Shown here one piece after another: positions 4,988 through 38,176 of a DNA stretch of 42,725 bases. Each line of letters begins with the position of its first letter. The stretch's first letter is position 1. The position numbers and the translations under genes were made by a program. This DNA is from a virus, in the IMG/VR virus record IMGVR_UViG_3300020202_000040, positions 1 through 42,725 of that record; one strand, written 5' to 3'. The notes beneath the pieces were generated by a model, which worked only from the letters and a program-made list of their open reading frames with translations, did not search any database and was not told where the DNA came from.

Positions 4988-5320
4988 ATGGCTGCTACAG
5001 CCGTCATTCAAGTCAACGGGCAAACAGTCGCAACCAGTGCCGCGGCGGGCCGCATCGCGCGCCCAAAGGGCGACACGACGTTCTCTGGAGAGGCTTCGAC
5101 GCCCGACGCGGGTGCGAACGAGATTACCACGTACAACTGGAGCTTCGACGGCGCGTCGAGTTCCAACGCGACTCCGACTTTCACGCTGGTTGAGGGGCGA
5201 GTCCACACTATCACCCTTCAGGTCGCCGACGATCTTGCGAACGAGGCAACGGCGACGCTGACGGTGGTTGTGCCCGGCGGGTTCCGCAGCCGTGACTACA
5301 GGGGGAGAGGCGGGAGGTAG
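4988..5320 (+). CDS. PKD-domain-like protein
   Basis: YNWSFDGASSSNATPTFTLVEGRVHTITLQVADDLANEATATLTVVV matches the PKD pattern (Y.WdFGDG...H.Y...G.Y.V.L.V.D). Confidence 0.6.
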   Translation: MAATAVIQVNGQTVATSAAAGRIARPKGDTTFSGEASTPDAGANEITTYNWSFDGASSSNATPTFTLVEGRVHTITLQVADDLANEATATLTVVVPGGFRSRDYRGRGGR

Positions 5321-5395
5321 CACGCAGCACCTCACCGCACAAACGGATTGATCCTACCGGCCAGATTCCGACTTTCAAGAGGGCGCGCGACACGC

Positions 5396-5791
5396 ATGAG
5401 CGACGAGGGGAACAATCAGGGGCACGACGACGGCCTGCCTTCCCCTCCAGACCGAGGGGGTAGGGGGCAATGCAGCCTTGCCGACCTGATGGACCCGCAC
5501 CGGGCGCGGGGTGCTGCTGGGCTACTCGCCCGCGCAATCTCCGCCGGGTACATCGACGCCTTCTGCATCGACTACCAGGAAGCGAAGAAGCTCGCCCGGG
5601 AACTGGCACAGCTCAAAGACAACCCAAGGGCGAAGGCTGCTGGCGTCAAGCTGTTGGCGGCGATGGCTATCCACGACCTCAAGCTCATGGAGATTGCCGA
5701 CAAGTCCAAGCGGCTGGATGACGGCTTGCCCACTGAGAACATCGGGGGCAGCATCAAGTTCATCAAGGGCGTGGACGAGGAGGCGATCTAG
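5396..5791 (+). CDS. Putative terminase small subunit (call by position)
   Basis: 131-aa helical protein immediately upstream of terL, sharing one base with it; ATG 5396 preferred over TTG 5348. Confidence 0.45.
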   Translation: MSDEGNNQGHDDGLPSPPDRGGRGQCSLADLMDPHRARGAAGLLARAISAGYIDAFCIDYQEAKKLARELAQLKDNPRAKAAGVKLLAAMAIHDLKLMEIADKSKRLDDGLPTENIGGSIKFIKGVDEEAI

Positions 5792-7143
5792 TGGTGTCCG
5801 TGGCCGACATCCCCGCTGACGCCAACGTGTACGAGCCGCGGGGCGGGGCACGCCAGTTGTTCCATTGCCGGGACCTGGAAGTGGACCTAGAAGGGCCAGC
5901 GGGCACGGGTAAGAGCCGCGCGGCACTGGAGAAGGCCAACGCCGTGGCTGAGAAGTACCCCGGCGCCCGCATCCTGCTGATCCGCAAGACGCGCGTCAGC
6001 ATGACCGAATCGGTGCTGGTGACGTGGGAAGAGAAGGTGCTCGGCCCAGAGCACTACCTCTGCCGGAACGGGGCTACGCGGGCGCACCGAACGGAGTACC
6101 GCTACAAGAACGGGTCGGTTGTAGTGCCAGGGGGGATGGACAACCCTGACCGGATCATGTCAACCGAGTGGGACCTCATCATCGAGTTTGAGGCCACCGA
6201 GCTGAGCGAGCACGAGCACGAGATGCTGTCCACCCGCTTGCGCAACGGGCGGATCGGCTACCACCAGCAGATCAGCGACTGCAACCCGAGCGGGCCGGGG
6301 CACTGGATCAACCGGCGGGCGTTGGACGGGAAGATGACCCGCATCCTGTCCCGGCACAAGGACAACCCGTTTCTATGGGACGGGAAGGACTGGACCGACG
6401 TAGGCCGGGCGTACATGGCGACCCTGGAGCGGCTGACCGGCCACCGCAAGAACCGGCTGCTGCTGGGCAAGTGGACGGCGGCGGAGGGGTTGGTGTACCC
6501 CGAGTTCGAGGCTGCGGCGGGTGGGCACGTCATCGACGCAATGCCCGATGGCTGGCAGGGCTGGCCCAAGCGCCGCTCCATCGACCTTGGCTTCAACGAC
6601 CCCTTTGTGTGCCAGTGGTGGGCCGAGTCCGACGACGCCCTGTACCTGTACCGCGAGGTGTACATGAGCGGGCGGATCATCGAGGACCACGCCCGGCAGA
6701 TTCTCCGGCTGTCGGCCGGCGAGGACTACGAGGCCACGGTGAGCGACCATGACCGAGAGGATCGTGAGACGCTGCACCGCCACGGGGTACAGACCACGCC
6801 AGCGACCAAGGACATCGACGCAGGTATAGCGGAGGTCAAGGCGAGGCTGACCAAGGGCGGCAACGGAAAGCCCCGCCTGTTCTTCCTGCGGTCGGCGCTG
6901 GTGGAGCGGGACGAGGCTTTGGCCGACGCCAAGCGGCCTACGTCCACGCTGGAGGAGTTCGACGCCTACCTGTGGAAGCAGCACCGCGACGGGGTGGCGA
7001 AGGACGAGCCGGTGGACCGCGACAACCACGGTATGGATGCGATGCGGTATTGCGTGATGAGTATGCAGTCCGGCCAGTACTACGCCTTCGGCACGGGCAC
7101 CGGCGAGCAGCCCAAGCGCGGCGGGTGGAGGGAGGCGGTATGA
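5791..7143 (+). CDS. terL: Terminase large subunit
   Basis: Walker A GPAGTGKS, LIIEFEATE Walker-B-like segment, C-terminal nuclease segment DRDNHGMDAMRY; 450 aa. Confidence 0.93.
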   Translation: MVSVADIPADANVYEPRGGARQLFHCRDLEVDLEGPAGTGKSRAALEKANAVAEKYPGARILLIRKTRVSMTESVLVTWEEKVLGPEHYLCRNGATRAHRTEYRYKNGSVVVPGGMDNPDRIMSTEWDLIIEFEATELSEHEHEMLSTRLRNGRIGYHQQISDCNPSGPGHWINRRALDGKMTRILSRHKDNPFLWDGKDWTDVGRAYMATLERLTGHRKNRLLLGKWTAAEGLVYPEFEAAAGGHVIDAMPDGWQGWPKRRSIDLGFNDPFVCQWWAESDDALYLYREVYMSGRIIEDHARQILRLSAGEDYEATVSDHDREDRETLHRHGVQTTPATKDIDAGIAEVKARLTKGGNGKPRLFFLRSALVERDEALADAKRPTSTLEEFDAYLWKQHRDGVAKDEPVDRDNHGMDAMRYCVMSMQSGQYYAFGTGTGEQPKRGGWREAV

Positions 7144-7418
7144 GCGTCGTTCTGGACATCCATGAGAACGAAGAACTGCGGCACGCCAAGGCGTTCCTTG
7201 ACGGCGTGGAACTCTCGCACTGCTTCCGCCTGTGCCCAGCCGAGGGGTGGGCTGATGTGTACGAGACAGAGAACGGCGGGCGGCGCATCGCACTTACCCC
7301 CGACGGGTTGGCCCCTGCTACCAAGCGGGTGCATGGGCGGGTGTACGCAATCGACACCCGCACGGGCGAGCCGTGGGACACCGACAAAGCCATGTACTCC
7401 GAAGGGGGCTGTGACTGA
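7140..7418 (+). CDS. Hypothetical protein (92 aa)
   Basis: ATG 7140 inside track ORF 6972-7418; ATGA overlap with the terL stop. Confidence 0.55.
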   Translation: MSVVLDIHENEELRHAKAFLDGVELSHCFRLCPAEGWADVYETENGGRRIALTPDGLAPATKRVHGRVYAIDTRTGEPWDTDKAMYSEGGCD

Positions 7419-9970
7419 TGCCGAAGGCCACCACCAAACGCCCCACCCGCGCCCCCAAGTCCCCCACCCCCGGCCGCGAGGTCTACGAGCCCTACGCGAT
7501 GGGCACGGTCATGGTGGGGGAGGGCATGTCCCGCCAGTTCTCGTTCAACCCCACCGACAACGCCCTGGTGCGGCGGTGCGTGCAGCAGACGATGGCCTGG
7601 GCCGTGGCGTTCAACGCGATGGCGTGCGCCCAACAGAAGCTCCGCCTGTTCCGCACCACCAAGGCCAAGGGCAAGGCCCTGTGGGCGGGCAAGCGGGTGA
7701 CTAACCGCAAGATGCTCCGCCACCTGCGCGGGGAGGGTCTGTACGACGCGGGCACCAAGGCTCTTGAGCTGAGCAATGAGGGGGACGTTGAGGAAGTGCT
7801 TGACCACCCAGCGCTAACCCTGTTCCGCCAGCCCGACCCCTTCCAAACCAGCATCGACTTCATGGAGACGCACTTCTGGGGCAAGGAAGCGGTGGGACGC
7901 TCGTACACCTGCAAGGCCGAGCGGGGCAGCGACGGGACGCCGGTGAGCCTGTACAACCTGCTGCCCGCCTACATGACCGTGCAGCCAGACGAGCGCACGT
8001 TCATCCGTGGGTACTGGTACGGGCGCAACACGGTGGCGCAGAGGATGTACACGCCCGCCGATGTGATCTACCACCGGCACATGACGAACAAGCTGAACCC
8101 CCTGGAAGCCTACTCGTGGCCGTCCACGCTCCAGATGGAGTCAGACTGCGAGATGGCGGCGGTGCAGAGCGAGGTGGCGAAGTGGAACAACGGCGGGCAG
8201 CCGGGCATGATCGTGAGCATTGACGGCACACCCCCGTCTCCCACGGCGCGGGCACAGATCGAGTCTGACTGGGCGCGGCAGGTCAAGGGGGTGCAGAAAC
8301 ATGGCGGCGCATTCTTCATATTCGGCAAGGCCAGCGTTACACAGGGCACCGACTCGAAAGAGATGCAGTACGTCGAGGGCCTGACCAAGATCGAGAAGCG
8401 CATCTACCGCGCGGCCGGCATCCCCGACTCCATCGTGGAGATGAGCAAGTCGAACCTGGCGAACGCTTGGCGGGCGGATCCGCAGTACTGCTCGCAGGTG
8501 ATCCTCCCCCGGATCAATAAGTCGGCGGAGGAGTTCAACCTGTGGCTCCTCTACAGCGACTTCGATCTGGACCCGGGCGAGTACTTCTTCGCGTTCGACA
8601 ACCCGGTGAAGGAGGACGAGGTAGCGGCGGTGGACCGGGCGGTGAAGCTGGTTACGGCGGGGATCATCCGCCGAGAGGTGATCGCGGCGGAGCTTGGGTA
8701 TTTGCCGGAGGATGTGGGGACGGACCCCAACGCCGTGCCGGAGCCTGTGGAGGTGGAGGATGGGGCCGAACAGACCGATCCCGAGGGCGGCGACACGACG
8801 GTGGATGGCACAGTCGCCGCGCCGACCGGGCGGGACGTACAGGCGGAGGCCCTCAATGGCGCACAGGTCACAGCACTGGCGGAGTTGGCTTCGCAGGTCG
8901 CGCTGGGTCAACTGCCCGAGCGTTCGGCCCGCGCGATTGCACGGGCGGCGTTCCCCCTCGTGTCCGACGAACTGCTCACCGAAATCTTCGGGGGGCTGGA
9001 AGCCTTCGAGCCAGAGCCCGATCCCACAGCCGCACCGCCCGATAACACTAAACCCCCGAACGGTAATGGACCTAGCAACGTGGCAGTGGGCGGCGACGGT
9101 GCGAAAGCCTTGGGAACTGAACTGACGCGCGGTAGCGTGAGCGCCCATGAGCGAGGCGGATCAACGGCGTCTGGTGCAGATCATGGCTCAACTAGAGCGC
9201 ATGACGAAGCCCGCTTCCCCTCCACCTCCCCCGCCCGCAAACGGCTTGCGCTTGAACCCCGGGAAGGGTGCGAGTGTGGACATCCCGCCGGACATATTCA
9301 CGGCAAAGCCACCGAGCCCGAAACGTCGCTTGGACAACTGAAGGCGAAGCTTGAGGCGTGGCTGAAGGCGACGTACCCGGAGGCGTTGCAGCCGGACGGG
9401 TCGGTGGTGCTGACGCCCGCGCAGGAGCAGGACCTACAGGCCATCCTCGGCCCTGTCATCCGTGAGTACATGGAGGAGGGCGCCAGCGCCACCGCGGGCA
9501 AGCTGGGCGGGGAGTGGGGCGGGATCGCCACCAACCCCCGGGCCTTGGAGTGGGCCGAGCAGCACGCGGCGGAGGCGGTCAGGGACATCGCGGACACGAC
9601 GCGGGCGGAGCTGAACGCGGCGGTCACTTCGGGCTTGCAGGAGTCGCGGACGCTGAACGAGATTCAGGCCGACATCCGCGAGCGGGTGCCGGAGATTGCG
9701 AGTGCGCGGGCGGAGGTCATCGCCCGCACCGAAACCGCCACGGCCTACAACCGGGGCGGGGTGATCGCGGCGAAAGAGAACGGGTACACGCACAAGCAGA
9801 TTGACCTCGCGGGGGGGTCGTGCCCCACCTGTGAGGCGGTGGTGGCGGCGCACCCCGAAGGCGTGCCGATTGACGGGAGTTTCATGGTGGAGGGGACGCC
9901 GATGTACAGCAGCCCGCTGCACCCGAACTGCCGGTGTGCCACAACGTTTGAGGACAGGAGCGAAGGATGA
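7418..9970 (+). CDS. Portal protein fused to a MuF/SPP1-gp7-type head morphogenesis domain
   Basis: 850-aa single ORF. The N-terminal ~530 aa is portal-like, including LNGAQVTALAELASQVALGQLPERSARAIARAAF. A Pro/Gly-rich linker follows. The C-terminus has ARTETATAYNRGG...CPTCEA...PLHPNCRC, typical of MuF-like minor head proteins. Confidence 0.8.
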   Translation: MPKATTKRPTRAPKSPTPGREVYEPYAMGTVMVGEGMSRQFSFNPTDNALVRRCVQQTMAWAVAFNAMACAQQKLRLFRTTKAKGKALWAGKRVTNRKMLRHLRGEGLYDAGTKALELSNEGDVEEVLDHPALTLFRQPDPFQTSIDFMETHFWGKEAVGRSYTCKAERGSDGTPVSLYNLLPAYMTVQPDERTFIRGYWYGRNTVAQRMYTPADVIYHRHMTNKLNPLEAYSWPSTLQMESDCEMAAVQSEVAKWNNGGQPGMIVSIDGTPPSPTARAQIESDWARQVKGVQKHGGAFFIFGKASVTQGTDSKEMQYVEGLTKIEKRIYRAAGIPDSIVEMSKSNLANAWRADPQYCSQVILPRINKSAEEFNLWLLYSDFDLDPGEYFFAFDNPVKEDEVAAVDRAVKLVTAGIIRREVIAAELGYLPEDVGTDPNAVPEPVEVEDGAEQTDPEGGDTTVDGTVAAPTGRDVQAEALNGAQVTALAELASQVALGQLPERSARAIARAAFPLVSDELLTEIFGGLEAFEPEPDPTAAPPDNTKPPNGNGPSNVAVGGDGAKALGTELTRGSVSAHERGGSTASGADHGSTRAHDEARFPSTSPARKRLALEPREGCECGHPAGHIHGKATEPETSLGQLKAKLEAWLKATYPEALQPDGSVVLTPAQEQDLQAILGPVIREYMEEGASATAGKLGGEWGGIATNPRALEWAEQHAAEAVRDIADTTRAELNAAVTSGLQESRTLNEIQADIRERVPEIASARAEVIARTETATAYNRGGVIAAKENGYTHKQIDLAGGSCPTCEAVVAAHPEGVPIDGSFMVEGTPMYSSPLHPNCRCATTFEDRSEG

Positions 9971-10500
9971 CGTGCATTGTCGGGGTCATTCACAACCGCA
10001 GGGTCTACATGGGCGGTGACTCCGCTGGCGTGTCGGGCTACTCCGTAACCTCGCGCAAGGATCCCAAGGTGTTTCGCCGTGGCGAACTGGTCATCGGCTA
10101 CACCAGCAGTTTCCGCATGGGGCAGGTGTTACGGTTCTCCCCGTCTGTGCCCGACAAGCCCGAAGGGGCCGACCTGTACGAATGGCTCTGCACCAAGTTC
10201 GTGGACGGGTGCCGGAAGGCCATGAAGGAGGCCGGGTACACCGAGACAGAGAACGGGCGGGAGTCCGGTGGCACGTTCCTTGTGGGCGTGCGCGGGCGTC
10301 TGTTCACTGTGCAGTCCGACTTTCAGGTGGGAGAGACGCGGGACGGATTCTCGGCTTGCGGTTGTGGGACGGACCTCGCGCTGGGGGCTATGGCCGTCAC
10401 CAGAGGTAAGAAGCCGGAGGACCGCATACGGGCGGCCCTGGCTGTGGCGGAGCGATTCTCGGCGGGCGTTCGCAGCCCCTTTCTGGTTGTGAAGGAGTAA
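9967..10500 (+). CDS. HslV/proteasome-beta-like Ntn hydrolase
   Basis: ATGA overlap. MTCIVGVIHNRRVYMGGDSAG parallels HslV [22 protein letters not shown] (Thr2 nucleophile). FSACGCGTDLALGAMAV parallels IAIGSGGPYAQAAARAL. Confidence 0.55.
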   Translation: MTCIVGVIHNRRVYMGGDSAGVSGYSVTSRKDPKVFRRGELVIGYTSSFRMGQVLRFSPSVPDKPEGADLYEWLCTKFVDGCRKAMKEAGYTETENGRESGGTFLVGVRGRLFTVQSDFQVGETRDGFSACGCGTDLALGAMAVTRGKKPEDRIRAALAVAERFSAGVRSPFLVVKE

Positions 10501-10505
10501 CAGGC

Positions 10506-11210
10506 ATGGTCGCCACACTCAAAGGGCCGGACATCATCCGCAAGCTGCGCGAGGCGCACCCCGAACTGGACGCCGGGGCGCGGCTGGGCGTCGTGTCCTC
10601 GTTCTGCAAGGATTCCCGCGTCGAGGCCAACGCCGGGCGGAAGTCCGTCGAGATCGTCGGCACCCTCACAACCGACGACATCGACCTGGACGAAGAGCGC
10701 GTGCTGCCCGATGGCATCGACTTCAACGGGTACATGATGAAGAACCGTAACTGGTTCGTTGACCACGACTACAGCCTCCTCTCGTGCGTGGGCAAGGTGC
10801 GCAGTCTCACCCGCAAGGGCAACGGGTGGCAGTACCGGGTCCAGATGCTGTACAACCCAGAGAACCCGCTGATCCAGGCCGTCGTGTCTCTGGCGGAGGC
10901 GGGGTCCTGCCCCACCTCCATCGGCTTCTGTGAGAAGGACGGCGGGGCACCGACGAAGGATGAGGAGCGGCGTTACCCCGGCAAGGCGTTCATCGTCCGC
11001 AAGTGCGTGGCGGTCGAGGGGTCGTTTACGGCCATGCCCTGCAACGTCTCCTGCCAGTCTGGGCAGGTCGTGTTTACCGGGAGCGAGGAGAAGGCGGAGA
11101 CGGCGCGGGGAATCCTCGTCAAGTCCCGCATCCCGGAGGCGTACTGGGCACGGCTGGGGCTGGCACCCGTCAAGGCGAAGCGGCGGATACTGGTGTGGGA
11201 TGGGCGGTAG
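10506..11210 (+). CDS. HK97-family prohead protease (S78/U35-like)
   Basis: Lies between portal and capsid; NWFVDHDYSLLSCVGKV (His region) and CPTSIGF (Ser region) resemble the family pattern. Confidence 0.55.
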   Translation: MVATLKGPDIIRKLREAHPELDAGARLGVVSSFCKDSRVEANAGRKSVEIVGTLTTDDIDLDEERVLPDGIDFNGYMMKNRNWFVDHDYSLLSCVGKVRSLTRKGNGWQYRVQMLYNPENPLIQAVVSLAEAGSCPTSIGFCEKDGGAPTKDEERRYPGKAFIVRKCVAVEGSFTAMPCNVSCQSGQVVFTGSEEKAETARGILVKSRIPEAYWARLGLAPVKAKRRILVWDGR

Positions 11211-11222
11211 GGAGAACCGAGC

Positions 11223-11540
11223 ATGGGAAAGAAGATTTACGAGAGCGACGTTCCGGACGTGCCCACAAACTTCTGGTATGGGTCAGAGCGTGAGGATGCC
11301 GGGGAATCCCTCCCACTGATTCAGATGCACGGCGAACAGTCTTACCGGCGCGGTTACTACCAAGCCGTATACGTTGTGCTGGAATACCTGCGGGCCGGGC
11401 ACAGCCCCGAAAGGATCAAGCGGTTCCTTGAGGGGCCGCTGTACAAATGGCGGTACGACACCGCCGTGGACACGATGAAGTGGGCCCCCGAGATAGCCCA
11501 CCCAAGCAGAACACCCCCGGGGACAGCATCCCCGGCCTGA
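11223..11540 (+). CDS. Hypothetical protein (105 aa)
   Basis: ORF with an upstream purine-rich site; followed by an intrinsic terminator. Confidence 0.6.
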   Translation: MGKKIYESDVPDVPTNFWYGSEREDAGESLPLIQMHGEQSYRRGYYQAVYVVLEYLRAGHSPERIKRFLEGPLYKWRYDTAVDTMKWAPEIAHPSRTPPGTASPA

Positions 11541-11557
11541 CCCGATGAGGGTTCTCG

Positions 11558-11586
11558 AAGCCCGCCAGTAATGGCGGGTTTTTCTT
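11558..11586 (+). terminator. Rho-independent terminator
   Basis: AAGCCCGCC-agtaat-GGCGGGTTT stem-loop followed by TTTTTCTT. Confidence 0.75.
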
Positions 11587-11636
11587 GCGCCCGCATAGCC
11601 CCGTCGTCATGACGGTTTCGTGACGGCGCGCCAGAG

Positions 11637-11656
11637 TGGTGCCAGAATGGTGCCAG
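11637..11656. repeat. TGGTGCCAG x2, 11-bp phasing
   Basis: Copies at 11637-11645 and 11648-11656 in a non-coding island. Confidence 0.8.
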
Positions 11657-11683
11657 CGCGCGCCGATCTGCCGCCCCAAAGTC

Positions 11684-11724
11684 CCTGCGAAACCACCTGC
11701 GGCACCCCTGCGAAAAACCCTGCG
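11684..11724. repeat. CCTGCG x4 iteron-like direct repeats with 11-12 bp phasing
   Basis: Copies start at 11684, 11696, 11707 and 11719; pairs are organised as CCCTGCGAAA..CCTGCGG. Confidence 0.8.
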
Positions 11725-11796
11725 GTCTCCGCCCACGGCGCACCGACTGCCCACAGACTGCACAGCAACAGCACACGGACTACCCACGCGCGCCTG

Positions 11797-11839
11797 TTTG
11801 GTGCGCAAAGTGCGCGCAAAAACACCAAATGCGCGCAAC
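11797..11839. repeat. TGCGC(GC)AA x3 plus inverted repeat TTTGGTG/CACCAAA
   Basis: TGCGCAAA 11802-09, TGCGCGCAAA 11811-20, TGCGCGCAAC 11830-39; inverted-repeat arms at 11797-11803 and 11823-11829. Confidence 0.75.
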
Positions 11840-11908
11840 TTTGCCGCCACCCTTGCCGGTATGGGCATAGTTCCCTACGGGCGCTCCCATCACCCAAACT
11901 GATGCCCC

Positions 11909-11937
11909 TTGCTTTCTCCATCACTCCCGGTTATGGT
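11909..11937 (+). promoter_or_regulatory. Candidate promoter for the capsid/late genes (TTGCTT-17-TATGGT)
   Basis: Sits in a locally AT-richer stretch ~130 nt upstream of the capsid ATG. Confidence 0.3.
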
Positions 11938-12067
11938 TAGCTGTCCGACATTCCAGACTGATGACGCCAGCCCCTTGGCGGTGAGCGCGCTACGGCCCCC
12001 TCACTACTTCGCGGTTGCCCGATGAGGTCGAGTTTCCCAACTCGCACAACTCACAAGGGCAACCACC

Positions 12068-13501
12068 ATGAACCGCAAGCAGCTTTTGGCGTTCCTCGCC
12101 AAGCAGGGCTACAAGGGCGCGTCAGTTCTCGCAGACATCAAGGCTTGGATCGCCGAGCAGAACGCCACCATCTCCGACCCGTCCGGGGAGGAGGTTGACG
12201 TTGACGCGGCTTGGGCGACCAAGGCCGCTCTGACCGTCGATGACGCCAGCACCAAGGCGCACGAGGCCGACGAAGACCCCGATTCCGTCACCGTCAGCAC
12301 CGCCGAGCTGAACCGCCTGAAGGCTGCGGCCCGGGTGGAGAACCAGAAGGTCCGGGGCACCAACCCGCCCCGCAACCCAGCCGACGCGCCGGCCATCCAC
12401 ACCGGAAACGACCGCTTCGCCCGCAAGTCCTACCAGGGCAAGATCGCCCGGGGCGAGGCCAAGTTCGGCGACGTTGACCAGGCCGAGTACGTTGGCGCGA
12501 CCCTGCGGCTCGCGTCGATGGCCCCCTTCGGCACGAAGTCGTACCGCCAGCGCGAGAGCGACGAGGCCATCGTCGCCAACGTCGTTGGCAAGACGGGCTC
12601 CAGCACCAACAACAGCATCGGCGGGTTCCTCATCCCCGACGACGTGAGCATGTCTATTTCGTGGGCGACCGAGGCCAGCGGCATTGCCCGCCGCCTGTTC
12701 AACGTGCAGCGGATGACCCGCGATACGTGGAGCGGCAACCGCAAGACGGCCATGATCTCCATGACCCACCGGGCGCAGTCGGGCTCGATGACGGCCACCG
12801 ACGACACGCTGGACCGGATCAACCTCATCGCCAAGGAGGTCTACGCCCTGGTGCGCCTCCCCACCTCACTGCTGGAGGATTCGGCGGTCAGCATCGCGGA
12901 GGAGTACAGCAAGAGCTTCGCGGAGGCTCAGGGTCGCCGCGAGGATCAGGACGCCTTCATCGGCGACGGCTCGGCCACCTACGGCGGGCACGTTGGGCTC
13001 GCCAACGCCTTGCGTTCTGGCGCGTACATCGCTCAGGCGACCTCGAACACCTGGGCGGCGCAGGTTGAGGCCGATCACCTGAAGCTCATGGGCTCGGTCG
13101 AGAACGTTGACACCAAGCGGCTCGCGTTCCTGTGCAGCCGTCAGTACTACGTACAGGTCATGCTCCGCCTCGCGCTGGGCAAGTCGGGCAACAACGCCCG
13201 TGACACACGCGAGGGGCTAGGGATGCTCGGCGCGGACGCCGTGTACCTCGGGCACCCCGTGTTCTTCTCGCCCGACCTTCCGATCATCACGGCGACCACG
13301 GCCAAGTCGGTGTACTTCGGGGACTTCCAGGGCGGGGCCACGCTGGGCGACCGGCGCGACCTCACCGTGTCCACCTCCGAGCACGCCTACTTCACCACCG
13401 ACGAGTACGCGATCAAGGCCACGGCCCGCATCGCGGTGAACGTCCACAGCGACGGGCGCTCCGGCACCTTCGGCAACATCGTCTGCCTCAAGAACGGCTG
13501 A
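12068..13501 (+). CDS. Major capsid protein, HK97 fold, with N-terminal delta/scaffold-like domain
   Basis: 477 aa; helical acidic N-terminus, then GGFLIPDDVS...LIAKEVYALVRLPTSLLEDS...EDQDAFIGDGS...YFTTDEYAIKATARIAV, typical of the Phage_capsid family. Confidence 0.9.
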   Translation: MNRKQLLAFLAKQGYKGASVLADIKAWIAEQNATISDPSGEEVDVDAAWATKAALTVDDASTKAHEADEDPDSVTVSTAELNRLKAAARVENQKVRGTNPPRNPADAPAIHTGNDRFARKSYQGKIARGEAKFGDVDQAEYVGATLRLASMAPFGTKSYRQRESDEAIVANVVGKTGSSTNNSIGGFLIPDDVSMSISWATEASGIARRLFNVQRMTRDTWSGNRKTAMISMTHRAQSGSMTATDDTLDRINLIAKEVYALVRLPTSLLEDSAVSIAEEYSKSFAEAQGRREDQDAFIGDGSATYGGHVGLANALRSGAYIAQATSNTWAAQVEADHLKLMGSVENVDTKRLAFLCSRQYYVQVMLRLALGKSGNNARDTREGLGMLGADAVYLGHPVFFSPDLPIITATTAKSVYFGDFQGGATLGDRRDLTVSTSEHAYFTTDEYAIKATARIAVNVHSDGRSGTFGNIVCLKNG

Positions 13502-28158: not shown

Positions 28159-28276
28159 CGCCTACCGATTCCCAGCCATTCTGTGAAGAAATGCTCACGC
28201 TCTATCAACCTAGAGCGCCCAGTCTCCCTAGACAACCGCCCGGTGTGTGCGCCCGGTGCCTTGGGGGAGGTTCTGG

Positions 28277-29869
28277 ATGAGCACGACAGACGGGTGGAAG
28301 CTGTGGGACGCCGAGGGTGTGGAGCGCGGGATCGGCGTGATGCCGAAGGCGGTGCCGAAGAACGTGGACGGGGCGGAGCCGATGCCCTATCACGCCACGC
28401 GGCACGCCGACCGTCCCATAAGCGAGCAACTCGCCCTCGCGTGCATCGAAACGGTGCAGAAAGCGTTGCACCTTTTGGAGGGGCAAGTAGGTTTGGCCCG
28501 CATGACAGCGGCACAGGCGAGCCCGGCACCACAGCCCGGCCCGCTCAGAATCTCTACCGACAGCCCGACCGTCAGCGTGCTGCTGGTTGCGTGGACCGGC
28601 GCGTTGAAGCTCAAGGGCGTCACTGACGGCCACGTTAAAGACTCCATCGACTGTGTGACCGACGCCGCCGCGTCTCAGTGCTGGACCTTCCCCAGCCAGA
28701 TGACGCCCGCCACGATCCGCACTTACTTGGAGGCCCGCAAGCTCAAGGGCAACGGCCCGCGGTATCTGAACCACCAACGCGCGTACATCGGCACGTTCTG
28801 GGACTTCTGCAAGGGCGAAGGCGCCGTGTCCGGGGACAACCCCATTGACGCCGTGCCCCGCGCCCGCGTGAAGCGGCGGCAGGCGTTCCACGTCCCTACC
28901 GAGGATGAGGTGGTGCGTCTCATCGTCGGCGCGACACAGGACTGGCGGAAGAAAGACCGCTGGCTTGTGCGGCTGGTGCAGGCGTGCAGCCATTACCGAA
29001 TCGGCACGCTCCGCGGCATGAAGCCCGAGCACGCGCACGAGGCGGAGTTCCCACCGTACTTCGAAGTTCCTCCGGAGCTGGTCAAGAACGGCGAGCCGAC
29101 GCGCGTGTGGATGACGGCGGAAGTGGCTCGCTGGATCACCGAGCACAAGCGGATCAATGCGGCCAAGATCAAAGCGAGGGGGCTGCTGTTTCTATCGGTG
29201 GGCAAGGGCAAAGAGTTCGACCGGGATCTGGAAGCCGCGAATCTCCCGAAGAAAGCGCACCCAGGAGCACCCGCGTTTGTCCCGCACAGCCTGCGGCACT
29301 TCGCCAGCAACCGGCTCAAGTGGGCCGAGGTGTTCACGGACGAGGAGCGGCAGGCGCAGAACGGGCACAAGACGTTGGAGATGACCACGAGGGTCTACAC
29401 CGATCCCTCTCACATTCAGTTAGGCCAGAAAATCTACCGGCTGAAAGACCTTTTACCGGACGGGTTTAGGCCAAGATGGGGGCAGCGAACAGAAAAAACG
29501 GGGCAAAGTGTGCTTGCACCCCCGGGGGAAACCGATAAACTGGACGACGCCAAGCCGAACAAGGGATTGAATCGTGTTCACCCCCCAGACTCACTACAAG
29601 AACCCGCCTGTGACCCGAGTGGTCCGGCTTGGCGGCATGACGGCAATCCCGTGCGGGCGGGTTCTTGCCGTGAGTCGAGCGAAGGGCGGCAGTTAGACGA
29701 GCCTGATACTGACCGGGGCAAGCGGTTCGAATCCGCCTACCCCGACTTAGATCAAAATGACCCCGATATAAACGGGGTCTACCTCGAGCTGATCGAGGTC
29801 CAGGCCCGCCTGATTGCCGCCCTTCTCCGGAAGGGACGCGGCAATGGACCGTCAAAGGCAAGCGGCTAG
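28277..29869 (+). CDS. int: Tyrosine integrase with ~155-aa post-catalytic extension
   Basis: GGGGAGG at 28264-28270; RIGTLRG (Arg), HSLRHF (H-x-x-R), GHKTLEMTTRVY (His...Tyr; Tyr codon at 29396-29398). Confidence 0.88.
   Translation: MSTTDGWKLWDAEGVERGIGVMPKAVPKNVDGAEPMPYHATRHADRPISEQLALACIETVQKALHLLEGQVGLARMTAAQASPAPQPGPLRISTDSPTVSVLLVAWTGALKLKGVTDGHVKDSIDCVTDAAASQCWTFPSQMTPATIRTYLEARKLKGNGPRYLNHQRAYIGTFWDFCKGEGAVSGDNPIDAVPRARVKRRQAFHVPTEDEVVRLIVGATQDWRKKDRWLVRLVQACSHYRIGTLRGMKPEHAHEAEFPPYFEVPPELVKNGEPTRVWMTAEVARWITEHKRINAAKIKARGLLFLSVGKGKEFDRDLEAANLPKKAHPGAPAFVPHSLRHFASNRLKWAEVFTDEERQAQNGHKTLEMTTRVYTDPSHIQLGQKIYRLKDLLPDGFRPRWGQRTEKTGQSVLAPPGETDKLDDAKPNKGLNRVHPPDSLQEPACDPSGPAWRHDGNPVRAGSCRESSEGRQLDEPDTDRGKRFESAYPDLDQNDPDINGVYLELIEVQARLIAALLRKGRGNGPSKASG
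29714..29745 (+). other. tRNA 3'-end / minihelix mimic: candidate attP core
   Basis: CGGGGCA-AGCGG-TTCGAAT-CCGCC-TACCCCG-A; a T-loop plus 3' acceptor strand of C1-G72/A73 (Pro-like) type, inside the int 3' extension. Confidence 0.4.
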
Positions 29870-32655: not shown

Positions 32656-32751
32656 CCCGCCGCGAACTCTGGCTGGCCCTTCTCTCGTGGCTGGCGATGT
32701 GCTGACCTCTCCCCCCGGCGGGACACCGCTGGGGTGGGTTTGGAGACGACG

Positions 32752-33660
32752 ATGATTGCGACCGCATCACAACTTGCCGAGGTTCACACCAGCGACCTCA
32801 TGGATGCTTGCCCCAAGCGGGTGCAGCTCCGCCACGAGGGCAAGATCATCGGTGAGACGCCCGGCGCTCTGTACCGCGGCCAACTCTTCCATGAGGCCGT
32901 CGCTGGTCTGTACCAGCGCAACAAGTGGGACCGACCCGCGTGTGAGGCCGCGATCCTCGCCGCTGCCCGCGTGGTGGCAGAGACGGCCAAGCGCGAGAAC
33001 CGCCCCTTTACCGAGGCCGTCGCGAACGGCGCGAGCACGCACCAGGCCGAAGTGCTGGACCTCGTGGTGCAGTACGCCGCCCGGTTCCACCCGATGCCGC
33101 AGGACAAGATCATCGGCTGTGAGCTGCCGATCCGGTGGACGATGGAGCACCCGTCGCTGCCAGAGCCGGTCAACTTCGCCAGTCACATCGACCTGTTGTT
33201 CCGCCGCGACACGCTGCTTTGCGTGTACGACTACAAGCTGAGGCAGGACGACCCGAGCAGGGCATTCCTTGCCCGCAACCCGCAACTCGGGCTGTACTGG
33301 CTCATGGTCCGCTACGGGCAGGTCTGCATCGACGTTGACGCGGATCTGTGGGTCGCCTTCGGAGAGTGGTCGGCGGTCGCGTGGGTTCACGCCCCGGCGC
33401 TGGCCCCGTACGGCAAGGCGTACACCAACACCCACACCGGCGAAGCGTTCAAGAAAGGCGACCTGCGCCCCGCCGACAAGGTGGTGCGGTGGTGCGGGTT
33501 CCATCCAGATCAGGAGGGCGCGTTGCGGGACGCCCTGGCGGAGCGTGTCGGCATGATGCGCGCTGGCTTCTTCCCGGCGATCCCGGACCCAGTTGGATGT
33601 GGTCTCTGTGAAGCATGGAAGCACTGTCCGCGTTACGACGCGATTGGAGGTGGCGAATGA
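32752..33660 (+). CDS. Cas4/RecB-family PD-(D/E)XK exonuclease with a 4-Cys cluster
   Basis: GGAG at 32742; N-terminal Cys (DACPKR) plus C-terminal CGLCEAWKHC; HIDLL...VYDYK nuclease motifs. Confidence 0.7.
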   Translation: MIATASQLAEVHTSDLMDACPKRVQLRHEGKIIGETPGALYRGQLFHEAVAGLYQRNKWDRPACEAAILAAARVVAETAKRENRPFTEAVANGASTHQAEVLDLVVQYAARFHPMPQDKIIGCELPIRWTMEHPSLPEPVNFASHIDLLFRRDTLLCVYDYKLRQDDPSRAFLARNPQLGLYWLMVRYGQVCIDVDADLWVAFGEWSAVAWVHAPALAPYGKAYTNTHTGEAFKKGDLRPADKVVRWCGFHPDQEGALRDALAERVGMMRAGFFPAIPDPVGCGLCEAWKHCPRYDAIGGGE

Positions 33661-36804: not shown

Positions 36805-37058
36805 CCACGAACACACAAACGCCCGCAATTAGCGGGAAGGAGACTCAGATGCGAATGGATGAAGCGTTCCCAGTAGCAGTCCATCACCCGATCCCGGCGC
36901 AGCGGGCCGTGTCCATCACGCTGACCTCAGCGGAGTGGGAGATGGTCGCGTGCGACATGGGCATCGAGCACTGCATGCCCAACAACGTCGATGCGACGTT
37001 CCGATCTCTTGTGACTGCGAGCATCGAAACTCAACTGCGTGCGAAGGGGGTCCTGTGA
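36801..37058 (+). CDS. Hypothetical protein (85 aa)
   Basis: ATGA overlap. Confidence 0.55.
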   Translation: MTTNTQTPAISGKETQMRMDEAFPVAVHHPIPAQRAVSITLTSAEWEMVACDMGIEHCMPNNVDATFRSLVTASIETQLRAKGVL

Positions 37059-38176
37059 AGATCACCGCAGAAACCAAGCCCCTCATCGAAGCGGTGGCGT
37101 TCGCAGTTCGCATCGCCAAGAGCAAGTTCAGCCGGGTCCGCCCGATCTTTGGGTGCGTCAAGATCATCGCGGAGACGATGCAGCCACTTCGCCTGGAGGC
37201 GCACGGCGGCGAGATGTGGGCGTCCATCACGGTCGAGCAGGCGGTCAACGAGACACCCGGCATCGTCTGTGTTTCCGCCGAGCGTCTGCTGTTGGCCCTC
37301 AACAACTGCGCCAACGACCCGACAGTGGTGCTGGAGGAAGACGGCCCATGCCTGCACGTTCGCGGCGACCGCACGCGGACGGATCTTCGGACCTGCCCTG
37401 TGCAGGACTATCCGCCGCCCCTGGACATCGGCGAAGCCAAGGCGACAGTCGGGGTCAGGGCGTCGGAGTTTGAGTCAGCGCTTGCGAAGGTGTCTGGATT
37501 CCAGTCTCCCGAGACCTCGAACTACGCCATTGCGGGCGTGCTCGTCCGACGCAACGAGAGGAATCTCGCCGTAGTGGCCCACGATGGCGTCGGCATGGCA
37601 GAAGTCAAACTCACCATGCCAAAGGCGGCAGCCAAAGCCGAAGTCATCATGCACGCCGAGGCTGTACGAACCGCCCGCGAAGCGATGAAGCAGGTCGAGG
37701 GCGGAGTGTCTGTCGAGTGCGTGATCGGCACGAGTGGGGTCGCGATGACGGTCGGGACTGTGACATTCCACAGCTCGGGAGTTGAGGGTGCGTTCCCTTC
37801 CTACGAGGACCACATCCCCGGCAAGTCCGAGGCGTGGTTCGAGTGCAGCGGGGAGGACTTGGCCCGTGCCGTCCAATCCGCCACCACCATGCTGGAGGAC
37901 ACGAAGAAGGCGGTGCGGTTCACGCGCGAGAACGGGCACCTGAAGATCGAAGGGAACACGGCGGAGGTTGGGAGCTGCGAGTCGGTCGTGGACGCCAAGG
38001 CGAACGGCGGCGTGCCGAATGTGTTTGCAACAAGGCCGCGATACCTGCTGAGTGCTATCGACGGAGCTGGAACGGCCATTGTGCGGCTGGAAGTCGAGAG
38101 CTCGAAAAAGCCCTGTGTGATGCGGTCGGGCGACGGTTCATTCACCGCCGTGTGGGCACCGTTCGGCGCAGCCTAA
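37055..38176 (+). CDS. dnaN: DNA polymerase III beta sliding clamp homolog
   Basis: GTGA overlap; 373 aa with three-domain length; EGAFPSYEDHIP matches the clamp hallmark EG.FPDY..VIP. Confidence 0.75.
   Translation: MKITAETKPLIEAVAFAVRIAKSKFSRVRPIFGCVKIIAETMQPLRLEAHGGEMWASITVEQAVNETPGIVCVSAERLLLALNNCANDPTVVLEEDGPCLHVRGDRTRTDLRTCPVQDYPPPLDIGEAKATVGVRASEFESALAKVSGFQSPETSNYAIAGVLVRRNERNLAVVAHDGVGMAEVKLTMPKAAAKAEVIMHAEAVRTAREAMKQVEGGVSVECVIGTSGVAMTVGTVTFHSSGVEGAFPSYEDHIPGKSEAWFECSGEDLARAVQSATTMLEDTKKAVRFTRENGHLKIEGNTAEVGSCESVVDAKANGGVPNVFATRPRYLLSAIDGAGTAIVRLEVESSKKPCVMRSGDGSFTAVWAPFGAA

What the first reader, a model, noticed from the sequence alone, without database searches (positions are those of the whole stretch)
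9967..10500. HslV/proteasome-beta-like Ntn hydrolase inside the head-morphogenesis module, next to a conventional prohead protease
**Sequence evidence.**
- The 177-aa ORF is translationally coupled (ATGA) to the portal-MuF gene.
- It starts MTCIVGVIHNRRVYMGGDSAG. This parallels the HslV/20S beta-subunit N-terminus ([22 protein letters not shown]), where Thr after Met removal is the catalytic nucleophile.
- A later block FSACGCGTDLALGAMAV lines up with the conserved GSGG...A.A region.

**Context.** The next gene (10506-11210) already looks like the standard HK97-type prohead serine protease, so this head module would carry two unrelated protease folds.

**Interpretation (inference).** A threonine-protease-fold protein between portal and maturation protease is not part of the textbook HK97 assembly pathway. 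It could process scaffold/delta domains or the MuF fusion. It could be packaged. Or it could be a catalytically dead assembly factor.
Basis: partly seen in the sequence, partly recalled or inferred. Interest (0 to 1): 0.65.

Follow-up and report, generated by a model that had tools for sequence, protein, structure and literature searches.

The report
Proteasome-like protease in phage head operon
A temperate-type phage carries, wedged between its portal gene and its ordinary capsid-maturation protease, a small proteasome/HslV-like threonine protease. The protein family is already catalogued in phages but has no known job, and it turns up in this packaging/head position repeatedly.

Summary
ORF 9967-10500 (177 aa) is real and overlaps the portal-MuF stop codon (ATGA). 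Its product is a proteasome-beta/HslV-type Ntn hydrolase: PHROG 1040 "peptidase HslV family" (E=1.4e-20), an AlphaFold model (pLDDT 92.6) that best matches BPH and HslV, and invariant Thr1/Asp17/Lys33/Gly-x-Gly equivalents even in 32-37% identical homologs.

The next gene (10506-11210) is a divergent HK97/S78-type prohead serine protease. Its fold matches T4 gp21, and hhalign against S78 proteases gives E=9e-6.

The family is not new. More than 4,900 homologs exist, 208 phage records carry it, and Fuchs et al. 2021 described phage-borne proteasome homologs (AAH, PPH). No function is known.

Context adds something. In 58 dereplicated viral loci the gene abuts TerL, portal, MuF or the S78 protease in 20, and always lies upstream of protease and capsid genes, beside four different terminase families. 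Yet sister phages with the same head cassette lack it there or place it before TerL. Large lytic phages keep it among early genes.

Best reading: an active, mobile accessory protease co-expressed with head genes, not a capsid-maturation component. Substrate unknown. Moderate interest.

The parts
9967..10500 (+). 177-aa proteasome-like (HslV/BPH/AAH-type) N-terminal-threonine hydrolase gene
   Evidence: ORF and sequence. PHROG 1040 E=1.4e-20. AF2 pLDDT 92.6. Foldseek top hits BPH 5ovs (TM 0.79) and HslV. Profile vs PDB: BPH E=3.5e-4. Invariant T2, D18, K34, G44, G132, G134.
9956..9970 (+). Shine-Dalgarno-like AGGAG plus ATGA start/stop overlap, coupling the protease gene to portal-MuF
   Evidence: Read directly from the sequence.
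7418..9970 (+). 850-aa portal-MuF fusion gene (portal residues 119-419, low-complexity linker about 480-690, MuF 732-842)
   Evidence: Pfam Phage_portal 1.1e-31 and Phage_Mu_F 5.2e-07. PHROG 2662 and 2468. Linker sequence.
10506..11210 (+). 234-aa divergent HK97/S78-type prohead serine protease (candidate His87, Ser138)
   Evidence: 13-member family with invariant D86-H87, S138-x-G140 and E171-x-S173. Foldseek top hit T4 gp21 5jbl, E=1.6e-5. hhalign vs S78 proteases: prob 83%, E=8.9e-6, with the motifs aligned. Lies between portal and a capsid protein with a 184-aa N-terminal extension.
5791..7143 (+). Terminase large subunit
   Evidence: Pfam Terminase_3 1.1e-08. PHROG 5653 and 3717.
7140..7418 (+). 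92-aa small ORF coupled to both TerL (ATGA) and portal (TGATG). Its homolog in L168 lies between protease and capsid gene.
   Evidence: Sequence. tblastn 40% identity to L168 10558-10773.
11223..11540 (+). 105-aa ORF of unknown function, last gene of the coupled string
   Evidence: ORF list. No family hit.
11557..11590 (+). Intrinsic-terminator-like hairpin plus U-tract that closes the TerL-to-orf105 unit
   Evidence: RNA fold -26.8 kcal/mol, z = -4.3, 0 of 200 shuffles as stable. Sequence.
12068..13501 (+). HK97-fold major capsid protein with an approximately 184-aa N-terminal (delta-like) extension
   Evidence: Pfam Phage_capsid 2.5e-26 over residues 185-459.

Best explanation
**What it is.** ORF 9967-10500 encodes a catalytically competent proteasome-family N-terminal-threonine peptidase. 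It belongs to the compact "group I" proteasome-like homologs. It is AAH-like, and the nearest solved structures are BPH and HslV.

**How it is made (inferred).** Host methionine aminopeptidase exposes Thr as residue 1. The Asp17, Lys33 and Gly47 equivalents (D18, K34, G44) and a Gly-Cys-Gly loop at the Ser129 position complete the active site. By analogy with BPH and HslV it should self-assemble into stacked rings.

**How it sits in the genome.**
- Shown: the gene is an accessory, horizontally mobile passenger inserted into the late packaging/head operon. It is translationally coupled to portal-MuF and lies upstream of the true capsid-maturation protease (10506-11210, S78/HK97 type).
- Inferred: it is therefore made at the same time as head components. 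It is neither the maturation protease nor required for HK97-type assembly.
- Weakest step, inference only: it acts as a free cytoplasmic protease on an unknown host or phage substrate late in infection.
For: **Identity**
- PHROG 1040 "peptidase HslV family", E=1.4e-20.
- AF2 model pLDDT 92.6.
- Foldseek: BPH TM 0.79-0.80, E=1e-10, then HslV, Anbu and 20S beta subunits.
- Family profile hits BPH at E=3.5e-4 and HslV at 4e-3, with Thr1, Asp17, Lys33 and Ser129 aligned.

**Active site**
- T2, D18, K34 and G132-C-G134 are invariant in 25 close homologs.
- T2, D18, K34, G44, G132 and G134 are invariant in 32-37% identical phage and archaeal-virus homologs.
- 119 of 126 unique locus ORFs keep MT...GxD.

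**Embedded in the operon**
- ATGA overlap; no promoter- or terminator-like site nearby; GC like the neighbours.

**The real maturation protease is next door**.

**Accessory and mobile**
- Sister phages L168, L169 and L171/172 share the TerL, portal-MuF, protease and MCP cassette. None has a homolog in the stretches fetched around it (about 16-19 kb each).
- The closest homolog (67% identity) sits upstream of TerL in L001. It is the best-conserved shared protein, against 26-60% for TerL, portal, protease and MCP.
- The gene occurs beside four different TerL Pfam families and three portal families.
- In T5-like and other large phages it lies among early or nucleotide-metabolism genes.
- In many bacterial genomes it lies outside phage modules.
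Against: **The placement is not random.**
- In 20 of 58 dereplicated viral loci the gene directly abuts TerL, portal, MuF or the S78 protease.
- In 30 of 58 loci it lies within five genes of a head or packaging gene.
- It is upstream of every S78 gene (17 genes in 15 loci) and every capsid gene (9 of 9) detected.
- It follows a MuF domain in four independent lineages.

This bias could mean a head- or packaging-linked function rather than mere cargo.

**Gaps in the evidence.**
- No substrate, oligomer state, expression or virion data exist.
- The absence in sister phages was checked only over the fetched 16-19 kb, not whole contigs.
Confidence: 0.6

Rival explanations
1. Head- or packaging-linked protease. 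The ring-forming Thr protease works with the portal/MuF/terminase stage of assembly. It might trim the portal-MuF linker, scaffold or delta fragments, or terminase. Alternatively it is encapsidated and delivered into the next host. This would make it an unrecognised extra component of HK97-type morphogenesis.
For: - The gene recurs in the TerS-to-protease interval of very different head modules: 20 of 58 loci adjacent, and always upstream of S78 and MCP.
- The window's arrangement (portal[-MuF] | gene | S78 | MCP) is repeated in L052, L056 and L074. The position after MuF is repeated in L052, L084 and L038/L096.
- There is tight translational coupling in the window.
Against: - Sister phages with the same portal-MuF fusion and protease have no copy in the module.
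- The slot varies: before TerS or TerL, between TerL and portal, or after portal.
- The partner families differ (four TerL and three portal families), which argues against a specific protein-protein fit.
- T5-like phages keep the gene next to thymidylate synthase and RNase H.
- Many chromosomal copies have no phage genes nearby.
Confidence: 0.22
2. Same fold, different chemistry. The enzyme is not a general protease but a sequence-specific transpeptidase or ligase (as connectase is within this superfamily), or an amidase acting on one defined target.
For: - Connectase shows that proteasome-family folds can be ligases (PMC8665760).
- The invariant Cys at the Ser129 position (GCG in 117 of 126 sequences) departs from canonical proteasome and HslV GSG.
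- The family is strongly conserved: 67% identity, against 26-60% for TerL, portal, protease and MCP.
Against: - The protein lacks connectase's signature helical insertion between S3 and S4 and keeps helices H1 and H2 (PMC8665760).
- The nearest structures are the proteases BPH and HslV.
- Some homologs have Ser at that position.
Confidence: 0.1
3. Catalytically dead structural or assembly factor that merely retains the Ntn fold.
For: - Only the general precedent of inactive proteasome alpha and beta subunits. The weak sequence hit is to the inactive yeast beta6 (C5) subunit.
Against: - Thr1, Asp17, Lys33, Gly47 and GxG equivalents are invariant down to 32% identity. That is the pattern expected of an active enzyme.
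Confidence: 0.03
4. Counter-defence or host-takeover effector. It is co-expressed with the terminase, portal and capsid proteins that host immune sensors recognise, and it degrades such sensors or other host proteins.
For: - Accessory distribution, mobility and strong conservation.
- Late-operon placement next to TerL and portal.
- One actinobacterial copy lies beside an nSTAND1-WD40 NTPase (L125).
Against: - No match to PADLOC defence models.
- No literature found.
- The idea rests on position alone.
- This is a special case of the best explanation rather than a strict alternative.
Confidence: 0.15

Closest known systems
AAH and PPH, the phage-associated "group I" proteasome-like homologs of Fuchs, Alva & Lupas 2021 (PMC8665760); equivalent to PHROG 1040 "peptidase HslV family"
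   Same: - Compact, about 180-aa subunit without a propeptide, insertions or C-terminal H5.
- Thr1/Asp17/Lys33 constellation.
- Found in Caudoviricetes phages, prophages, alpha-proteobacteria and actinobacteria.
- Function unknown in the paper as well.
   Different: - The paper does not report any link to head or packaging operons.
- PPH lacks helix H2, whereas this protein has H1-H4. It therefore fits AAH better than PPH.
- A direct comparison with the AAH reference sequence could not be made.
BPH (beta-proteobacteria proteasome homologue; PDB 5ovs, 5ovt, 5ovu)
   Same: - Best structural match (TM 0.79-0.80) and best sequence-profile match (E=3.5e-4).
- N-terminal Thr without a propeptide.
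- Acidic loop after H2.
- No adjacent unfoldase gene.
   Different: - Only about 21% identity.
- Gly-Cys-Gly instead of Gly-Ser-Gly.
- Shorter pore loop.
- Phage-borne rather than a chromosomal beta-proteobacterial gene.
- The ring stoichiometry here is unknown.
HslV (ClpQ), peptidase of the HslUV ATP-dependent protease
   Same: - Fold, size, MT(T/C)IV N-terminus with Thr1 exposed by Met removal, and GxG loop.
   Different: - Does not reach the Pfam Proteasome or NCBIfam HslV models.
- Neither flanking gene is an HslU-like ATPase: they are portal-MuF and the prohead protease.
- About 17-20% identity.
HK97 gp4 / Peptidase_S78 and T4 gp21 prohead proteases (for the neighbouring gene 10506-11210)
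   Same: - Position between portal and a delta-domain capsid protein.
- His and Ser motifs (DH..., SIGF, ExS..P) aligned by hhalign.
- T4 gp21 fold.
   Different: - Too divergent for the Pfam S78 model: no hit for the window protein, and E=0.05 for one family member.
- Only 13 relatives in the database.

Membership tests
Proteasome-family Ntn hydrolases (proteasome beta / HslV / BPH / Anbu superfamily) | Four-layer alpha-beta-beta-alpha Ntn fold of proteasome subunits | tested here: met
   AF2 pLDDT 92.6 with helices H1-H4 and a beta core. 1,032 PDB matches at E<=1e-3; all 50 listed (the best-scoring) are BPH, HslV/ClpQ, Anbu or 20S proteasome chains.
Proteasome-family Ntn hydrolases (proteasome beta / HslV / BPH / Anbu superfamily) | N-terminal nucleophile Thr1 plus Asp17, Lys33 and Gly47 equivalents | tested here: met
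   T2, D18, K34 and G44 are invariant in close and distant homologs. They align to Thr1, Asp17 and Lys33 of BPH and HslV.
Proteasome-family Ntn hydrolases (proteasome beta / HslV / BPH / Anbu superfamily) | Peptidase activity and ring assembly | not testable with these tools
   Needs biochemistry or a multimer model. No oligomer prediction was available.
HslV (ClpQ) proper | Matches curated HslV or Proteasome sequence models (Pfam PF00227, NCBIfam HslV) | tested here: not met
   No Pfam-A hit even at E<=1. No NCBIfam hit.
HslV (ClpQ) proper | Operon partner HslU AAA+ unfoldase | tested here: not met
   The flanking genes are portal-MuF and the prohead protease. No ATPase abuts the gene in the related head-module loci.
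AAH (Fuchs et al. 2021) | Compact subunit with H1-H4, no propeptide, no S12/H5, and no insertions | tested here: met
   177 aa; helices 49-57, 70-89, 135-144 and 150-164; ends in strand 172-176. Criteria taken from PMC8665760.
AAH (Fuchs et al. 2021) | Distribution in alpha-proteobacteria, actinobacteria and phages | tested here: met
   Closest genomic homologs are in Azospirillum, Skermanella, Devosia, Mesorhizobium, Actinoplanes, Actinomadura and Micromonosporaceae, plus prophages.
AAH (Fuchs et al. 2021) | Clusters with the AAH reference sequence (WP_035979212) in sequence space | not testable with these tools
   The reference sequence could not be retrieved. The accessions of 10 homolog clusters did not include it.
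PPH (Fuchs et al. 2021) | About 140 residues, lacking helix H2 | tested here: not met
   The protein is 177 aa and H2 (residues 70-89) is present at high confidence.
Peptidase_S78 / HK97-type prohead protease (neighbouring gene 10506-11210) | Herpesvirus-assemblin-like fold with a His/Ser catalytic pair | tested here: met
   Foldseek top three hits are T4 gp21 5jbl chains (E=1.6e-5 to 9.5e-5, prob 1.00); the model is only moderate (pLDDT 71). H87 and S138 are invariant and align to the S78 His and Ser.
Peptidase_S78 / HK97-type prohead protease (neighbouring gene 10506-11210) | Reaches the Pfam PF04586 gathering score | tested here: not met
   No hit for the window protein. One of 13 family members reaches E=0.05. 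Homology is seen only at the profile-profile level.

The most novel reading that the evidence does not exclude
The compact proteasome-like rings are a previously unrecognised, optional module of tailed-phage head and packaging operons. They would be functionally coupled to the portal/MuF/terminase stage. Possible modes are docking on the 12-fold portal, processing portal-MuF or terminase, or being loaded into the procapsid for delivery. That would explain why the gene is repeatedly captured between TerS and the prohead protease in unrelated head-module lineages.
Probability: 0.15. Interest if true: 0.75.

Novelty: new member of a known kind. Interest (0 to 1): 0.4.

Why it matters
**Why it matters**
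- Phage-encoded proteasome homologs are widespread. There are more than 4,900 relatives here, and hundreds of sequenced phages carry one, including the T5-like Demerecviridae. None has an assigned function.
- This window, with the loci surveyed around it, shows that one subgroup is repeatedly wired into the late packaging/head operon next to a conventional prohead protease.
- That gives a concrete, genetically tractable setting in which to ask what a viral proteasome-like enzyme does: knock-out, Thr1Ala mutant, virion proteomics.
- If the enzyme proves head-linked, it adds a component to a textbook assembly pathway.
- If it is a cytoplasmic effector, it is a candidate host-takeover or counter-defence protease.

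As it stands, this is a well-supported annotation with a modest new contextual observation, not a new kind of system.

Tried and rejected
**Searches that found nothing**
- Pfam-A and NCBIfam gave no hit for the 177-aa protein. Only PHROGs recognised it.
- A single-sequence search of PDB sequences gave only a marginal hit to yeast beta6, E=0.048. The family profile was needed to reach BPH and HslV.
- PADLOC defence models: no hit for the protease or its neighbours.
- Rfam and tRNA scans of the window: nothing.
- Three literature searches found no functional study and no mention of a head-module association.
- I looked for the AAH reference accession among the NCBI homolog clusters and did not find it.

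**Ideas rejected**
- I first read the gene as a one-off insertion, because isolated large phages keep it among early genes. The 58-locus survey then showed recurrent head-operon placement.
- I rejected the idea that it replaces the prohead protease. S78 proteases co-occur downstream in 15 loci and in the window.
- I rejected a MuF-toxin/immunity pair. The portal-MuF protein ends with the MuF domain and has no extra C-terminal toxin domain.

**Tool limitation**
- The consensus terminator scan missed the hairpin at 11557-11590, which folding then confirmed.
Full report
**1. The observation**

The window is a 42.7-kb, 65.7% GC contig. The GC3-filtered gene calls lie mostly on the + strand. It encodes an integrase-like protein, a beta-clamp and a PD-(D/E)XK nuclease, so it is a temperate-type tailed phage or prophage.

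ORF 9967-10500 (177 aa) is present exactly as described. It begins MTCIVGVIHNRRVYMGGDSAG and contains FSACGCGTDLALGAMAV.

Its ATG overlaps the stop codon of the upstream gene (ATGA, 9967-9970) and is preceded by AGGAG. The upstream 850-aa protein is a portal-MuF fusion: Phage_portal at residues 119-419 and Phage_Mu_F at 732-842.

The coupling extends across the whole string:
- The TerL stop overlaps the start of a 92-aa ORF (ATGA at 7140-7143).
- That ORF's stop overlaps the portal start (TGATG).
- The protease-like gene is followed 5 nt later by the next gene, behind AAGGAG.

No promoter- or terminator-like site flanks the gene, and its GC matches its neighbours. A strong terminator hairpin follows orf105 at 11557-11590. 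TerL, orf92, portal-MuF, the HslV-like gene, the 234-aa gene and orf105 therefore look like one unit.

**2. What the protein is**

Pfam and NCBIfam do not recognise it. PHROG 1040, "peptidase HslV family", matches at E=1.4e-20.

An AlphaFold2 model built on 25 homologs is confident: pLDDT 92.6, pTM 0.88. It shows a beta core with two helix pairs and no C-terminal helix. Foldseek against the PDB returns Thiobacillus BPH first (TM 0.79-0.80, E about 1e-10). HslV from several species, Anbu and 20S beta subunits follow. A profile of the family hits BPH (E=3.5e-4) and HslV (4e-3) in PDB sequences. In those alignments, query T2 aligns to Thr1, the GGD motif to Asp17, and K34 to Lys33. The Cys of Gly-Cys-Gly aligns to the Ser of the Gly-Ser-Gly loop.

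Conservation of the catalytic positions:
- Among 25 homologs (53-67% identity), M1, T2, D18, K34, G132, C133 and G134 are invariant.
- Among 32-37% identical homologs, T2, D18, K34, G44, G132 and G134 remain invariant, and the central residue is Cys or Ser. These homologs come from a T5-like Salmonella phage, an Actinomycetia phage and the archaeal virus PhiF1.
- Of 126 unique homolog ORFs in fetched loci, 119 keep MT...GxD and 117 keep GCG.

From established knowledge of methionine aminopeptidase specificity, Thr at position 2 permits Met removal, as in E. coli HslV. I infer that the enzyme is active.

**3. The neighbour**

The 234-aa product of 10506-11210 has no direct Pfam or PHROG hit and only 13 relatives. 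Those relatives share invariant D86-H87, S138-x-G140 and E171-x-S173...P178.

Its AF2 model (pLDDT 71) finds T4 gp21 prohead protease as its only significant PDB match (E=1.6e-5, prob 1.0), with herpesvirus proteases trailing. hhalign against an alignment of bona fide Peptidase_S78 proteins taken from related loci gives 83% probability and E=8.9e-6, with the His, Ser and ExS..P motifs in register.

The gene lies between the portal gene and an HK97-fold capsid protein whose Pfam domain starts at residue 185, which implies a delta-like N-terminal extension. It is a divergent HK97-type prohead serine protease. The head operon does carry two unrelated protease folds side by side.

**4. How widespread and how known**

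- The protein search returned 4,911 homologs at E<=1e-3. Several JGI entries are already named "HslVU peptidase subunit".
- tblastn finds it in 208 phage records. These are mostly T5-like Salmonella and Escherichia phages, with Vibrio, Aeromonas, Geobacillus, Moorella, Psychrobacter and jumbo phages. They are annotated variously as HslV-family peptidase, proteasome subunit or Ntn hydrolase.
- 35 BFVD viral models share the fold.
- Fuchs, Alva & Lupas (Bioinformatics 2021, PMC8665760) catalogued new proteasome homologs. [quoted passage not shown] They group with BPH and HslV and have no assigned function.
- The window protein fits AAH in three ways. It is 177 aa with H1-H4. Its closest genomic relatives are in Azospirillum, Skermanella, Devosia, Mesorhizobium, Actinoplanes and Actinomadura. 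It has no propeptide and no H5. I could not compare it with the AAH reference sequence directly.
- Three literature searches found no functional work.

**5. Context survey**

I fetched the 80 best IMG/VR loci (of 416 positives). I called ORFs, dereplicated the loci at 90% protease identity to 58, clustered the neighbours, and labelled the clusters with Pfam.

Results:
- The gene directly abuts TerL, portal, MuF or an S78 protease in 20 of 58 loci.
- It lies within five genes of a packaging or head gene in 30 of 58.
- My rough expectations are about 8% and about 25% for a random slot in a 60-70-gene phage. These are assumptions, not measurements. Against them, binomial tails are about 1e-8 and about 1e-5. 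The loci are not phylogenetically independent, so these are indicative only.
- Every S78 gene (17 genes in 15 loci) and every capsid gene (9) found lies downstream of the protease-like gene.

Recurrent layouts:
- TerL | gene | portal | S78 | MCP: directly in L019. A short ORF follows the gene in L023, L046, L062 and L075, and one or two precede it in L058 and L061. TerL(Terminase_6) | gene | DUF4055 portal occurs in L083, and in L072 with a short ORF between.
- TerL(GpA) | gene | lambda-type portal in L116.
- gene | TerL (L063, L077, L041, L001).
- portal(-MuF) | gene | S78 | MCP, as in the window (L052 and L056; L074 with a 128-aa ORF before the gene). L052 is 46% GC and has a canonical S78 protease at E=4e-28.
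- The gene follows a MuF domain in the window, L052, L084 and L038/L096.

Four TerL Pfam families and three portal families are involved, so the placements arose repeatedly.

**6. Evidence that the gene is accessory**

- The closest homolog (67% identity, L001) belongs to a related phage: TerL 60%, portal 36%, protease 42%, MCP 26%. There the gene sits between the TerS-like gene and TerL, not after the portal.
- Three further relatives carry the same TerL, portal-MuF, protease and MCP cassette (protease identities 61%, 50% and 39%). None has a homolog anywhere in the stretches fetched around it (about 16-19 kb each). The portal is followed directly by the protease in L169 and L171/172, and by an unrelated 108-aa ORF in L168.
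- In large lytic phages the gene lies among small early genes or next to thymidylate synthase, ribonucleotide reductase and RNase H.
- In many bacterial genomes it is in non-phage surroundings. One example is a conserved Azospirillum locus beside a DJ-1/PfpI-like gene.
- It also occurs in head modules without a detectable S78 protease (for example L072, L083, L084).

**7. Interpretation**

Shown:
- Identity as a proteasome-family Thr hydrolase with an intact active site.
- Operon embedding.
- A genuine prohead protease next door.
- Recurrent but non-obligatory placement in the packaging/head operon.

Inferred:
- The protein is active and ring-forming, by analogy with BPH and HslV. The acidic loop after H2 (TETENGRES) aligns to BPH's pore loop. 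In BPH that loop is associated with working without an unfoldase (PMC8665760).
- It is expressed late, with portal and protease.
- It is dispensable for HK97-type maturation.

Most speculative: its substrate. I favour an accessory cytoplasmic protease acting late in infection, in host takeover or counter-defence, over a head-assembly role. The consistent upstream-of-protease placement keeps the head-linked reading alive at about 0.2.

**8. Verdict**

The finding is correct as an annotation, and its context claim is right. The protein family is already described and annotated, and nothing here shows a new mechanism. The modest new element is the repeated capture of this proteasome-like gene in the TerS-to-protease interval of diverse head modules. 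I rate it a new member of a known kind, interest about 0.4.

Noticed in passing
window 11541-12067: About 530 bp without a convincing ORF lie between orf105 and the capsid gene. The stretch opens with a strong terminator-like hairpin plus U-tract (11557-11590, z = -4.3) that the consensus terminator scan missed. The capsid gene therefore seems to start a separate transcription unit from TerL, portal and the protease. L168 has a similar gap of about 500 bp after its protease.
   Followed up: partly
window 7140-7418: A 92-aa ORF is translationally coupled to both TerL (ATGA) and portal (TGATG). The ORF list extends it to 6972, but that extension lies inside TerL. Its homolog in the related phage L168 (40% identity) lies between protease and capsid gene instead. 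Small genes therefore shuffle within this head module.
   Followed up: partly
window 7418-9970 (protein residues about 480-690): The portal and MuF domains are fused through a linker of about 210 residues, partly Pro/Gly/Ala-rich and low in complexity. Portal-MuF fusions recur in L001, L168, L169, L052 and L084, and as 778-aa proteins in the L008-group (~64% GC) prophage loci.
   Followed up: partly
L093-L110 and other Azospirillum loci (e.g. L094 9197-9865): Across many Azospirillum species the protease homolog sits in a conserved neighbourhood, directly downstream of a 222-aa DJ-1/PfpI-like gene and usually upstream of a 77-aa ORF. In the ~64% GC IMG/VR loci of the L008 group, a 778-aa portal-MuF gene lies about 5.5 kb downstream. 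Whether the Azospirillum locus is a fixed prophage remnant or a GTA-like element was not resolved.
   Followed up: partly
L125 10638-14111 (Symbioplanes lichenis): An actinobacterial copy of the protease homolog is immediately followed, on the same strand, by a 1,157-aa nSTAND1 NTPase with WD40 repeats, a typical immune-sensor architecture. This is a single case and its significance is unknown.
   Followed up: no
window 12068-13501: The Pfam Phage_capsid domain of the capsid protein begins only at residue 185. This implies a long delta/scaffold-like N-terminal extension, consistent with a protease-dependent HK97-type pathway.
   Followed up: no
window 28247-29869, 32734-33660, 36935-38176: The rest of the contig encodes a 540-aa protein with a weak tyrosine-recombinase (Phage_integrase) match, a PD-(D/E)XK nuclease and a DNA polymerase III beta-clamp homolog. 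There are no tRNAs and no Rfam matches.
   Followed up: partly
L175 (Methanobacterium virus PhiF1) 5001-5576: A 37% identical homolog with the catalytic residues intact is encoded by an archaeal virus, next to an anaerobic ribonucleotide reductase. Fuchs et al. describe group I proteasome homologs as confined to bacteria and bacteriophages.
   Followed up: no
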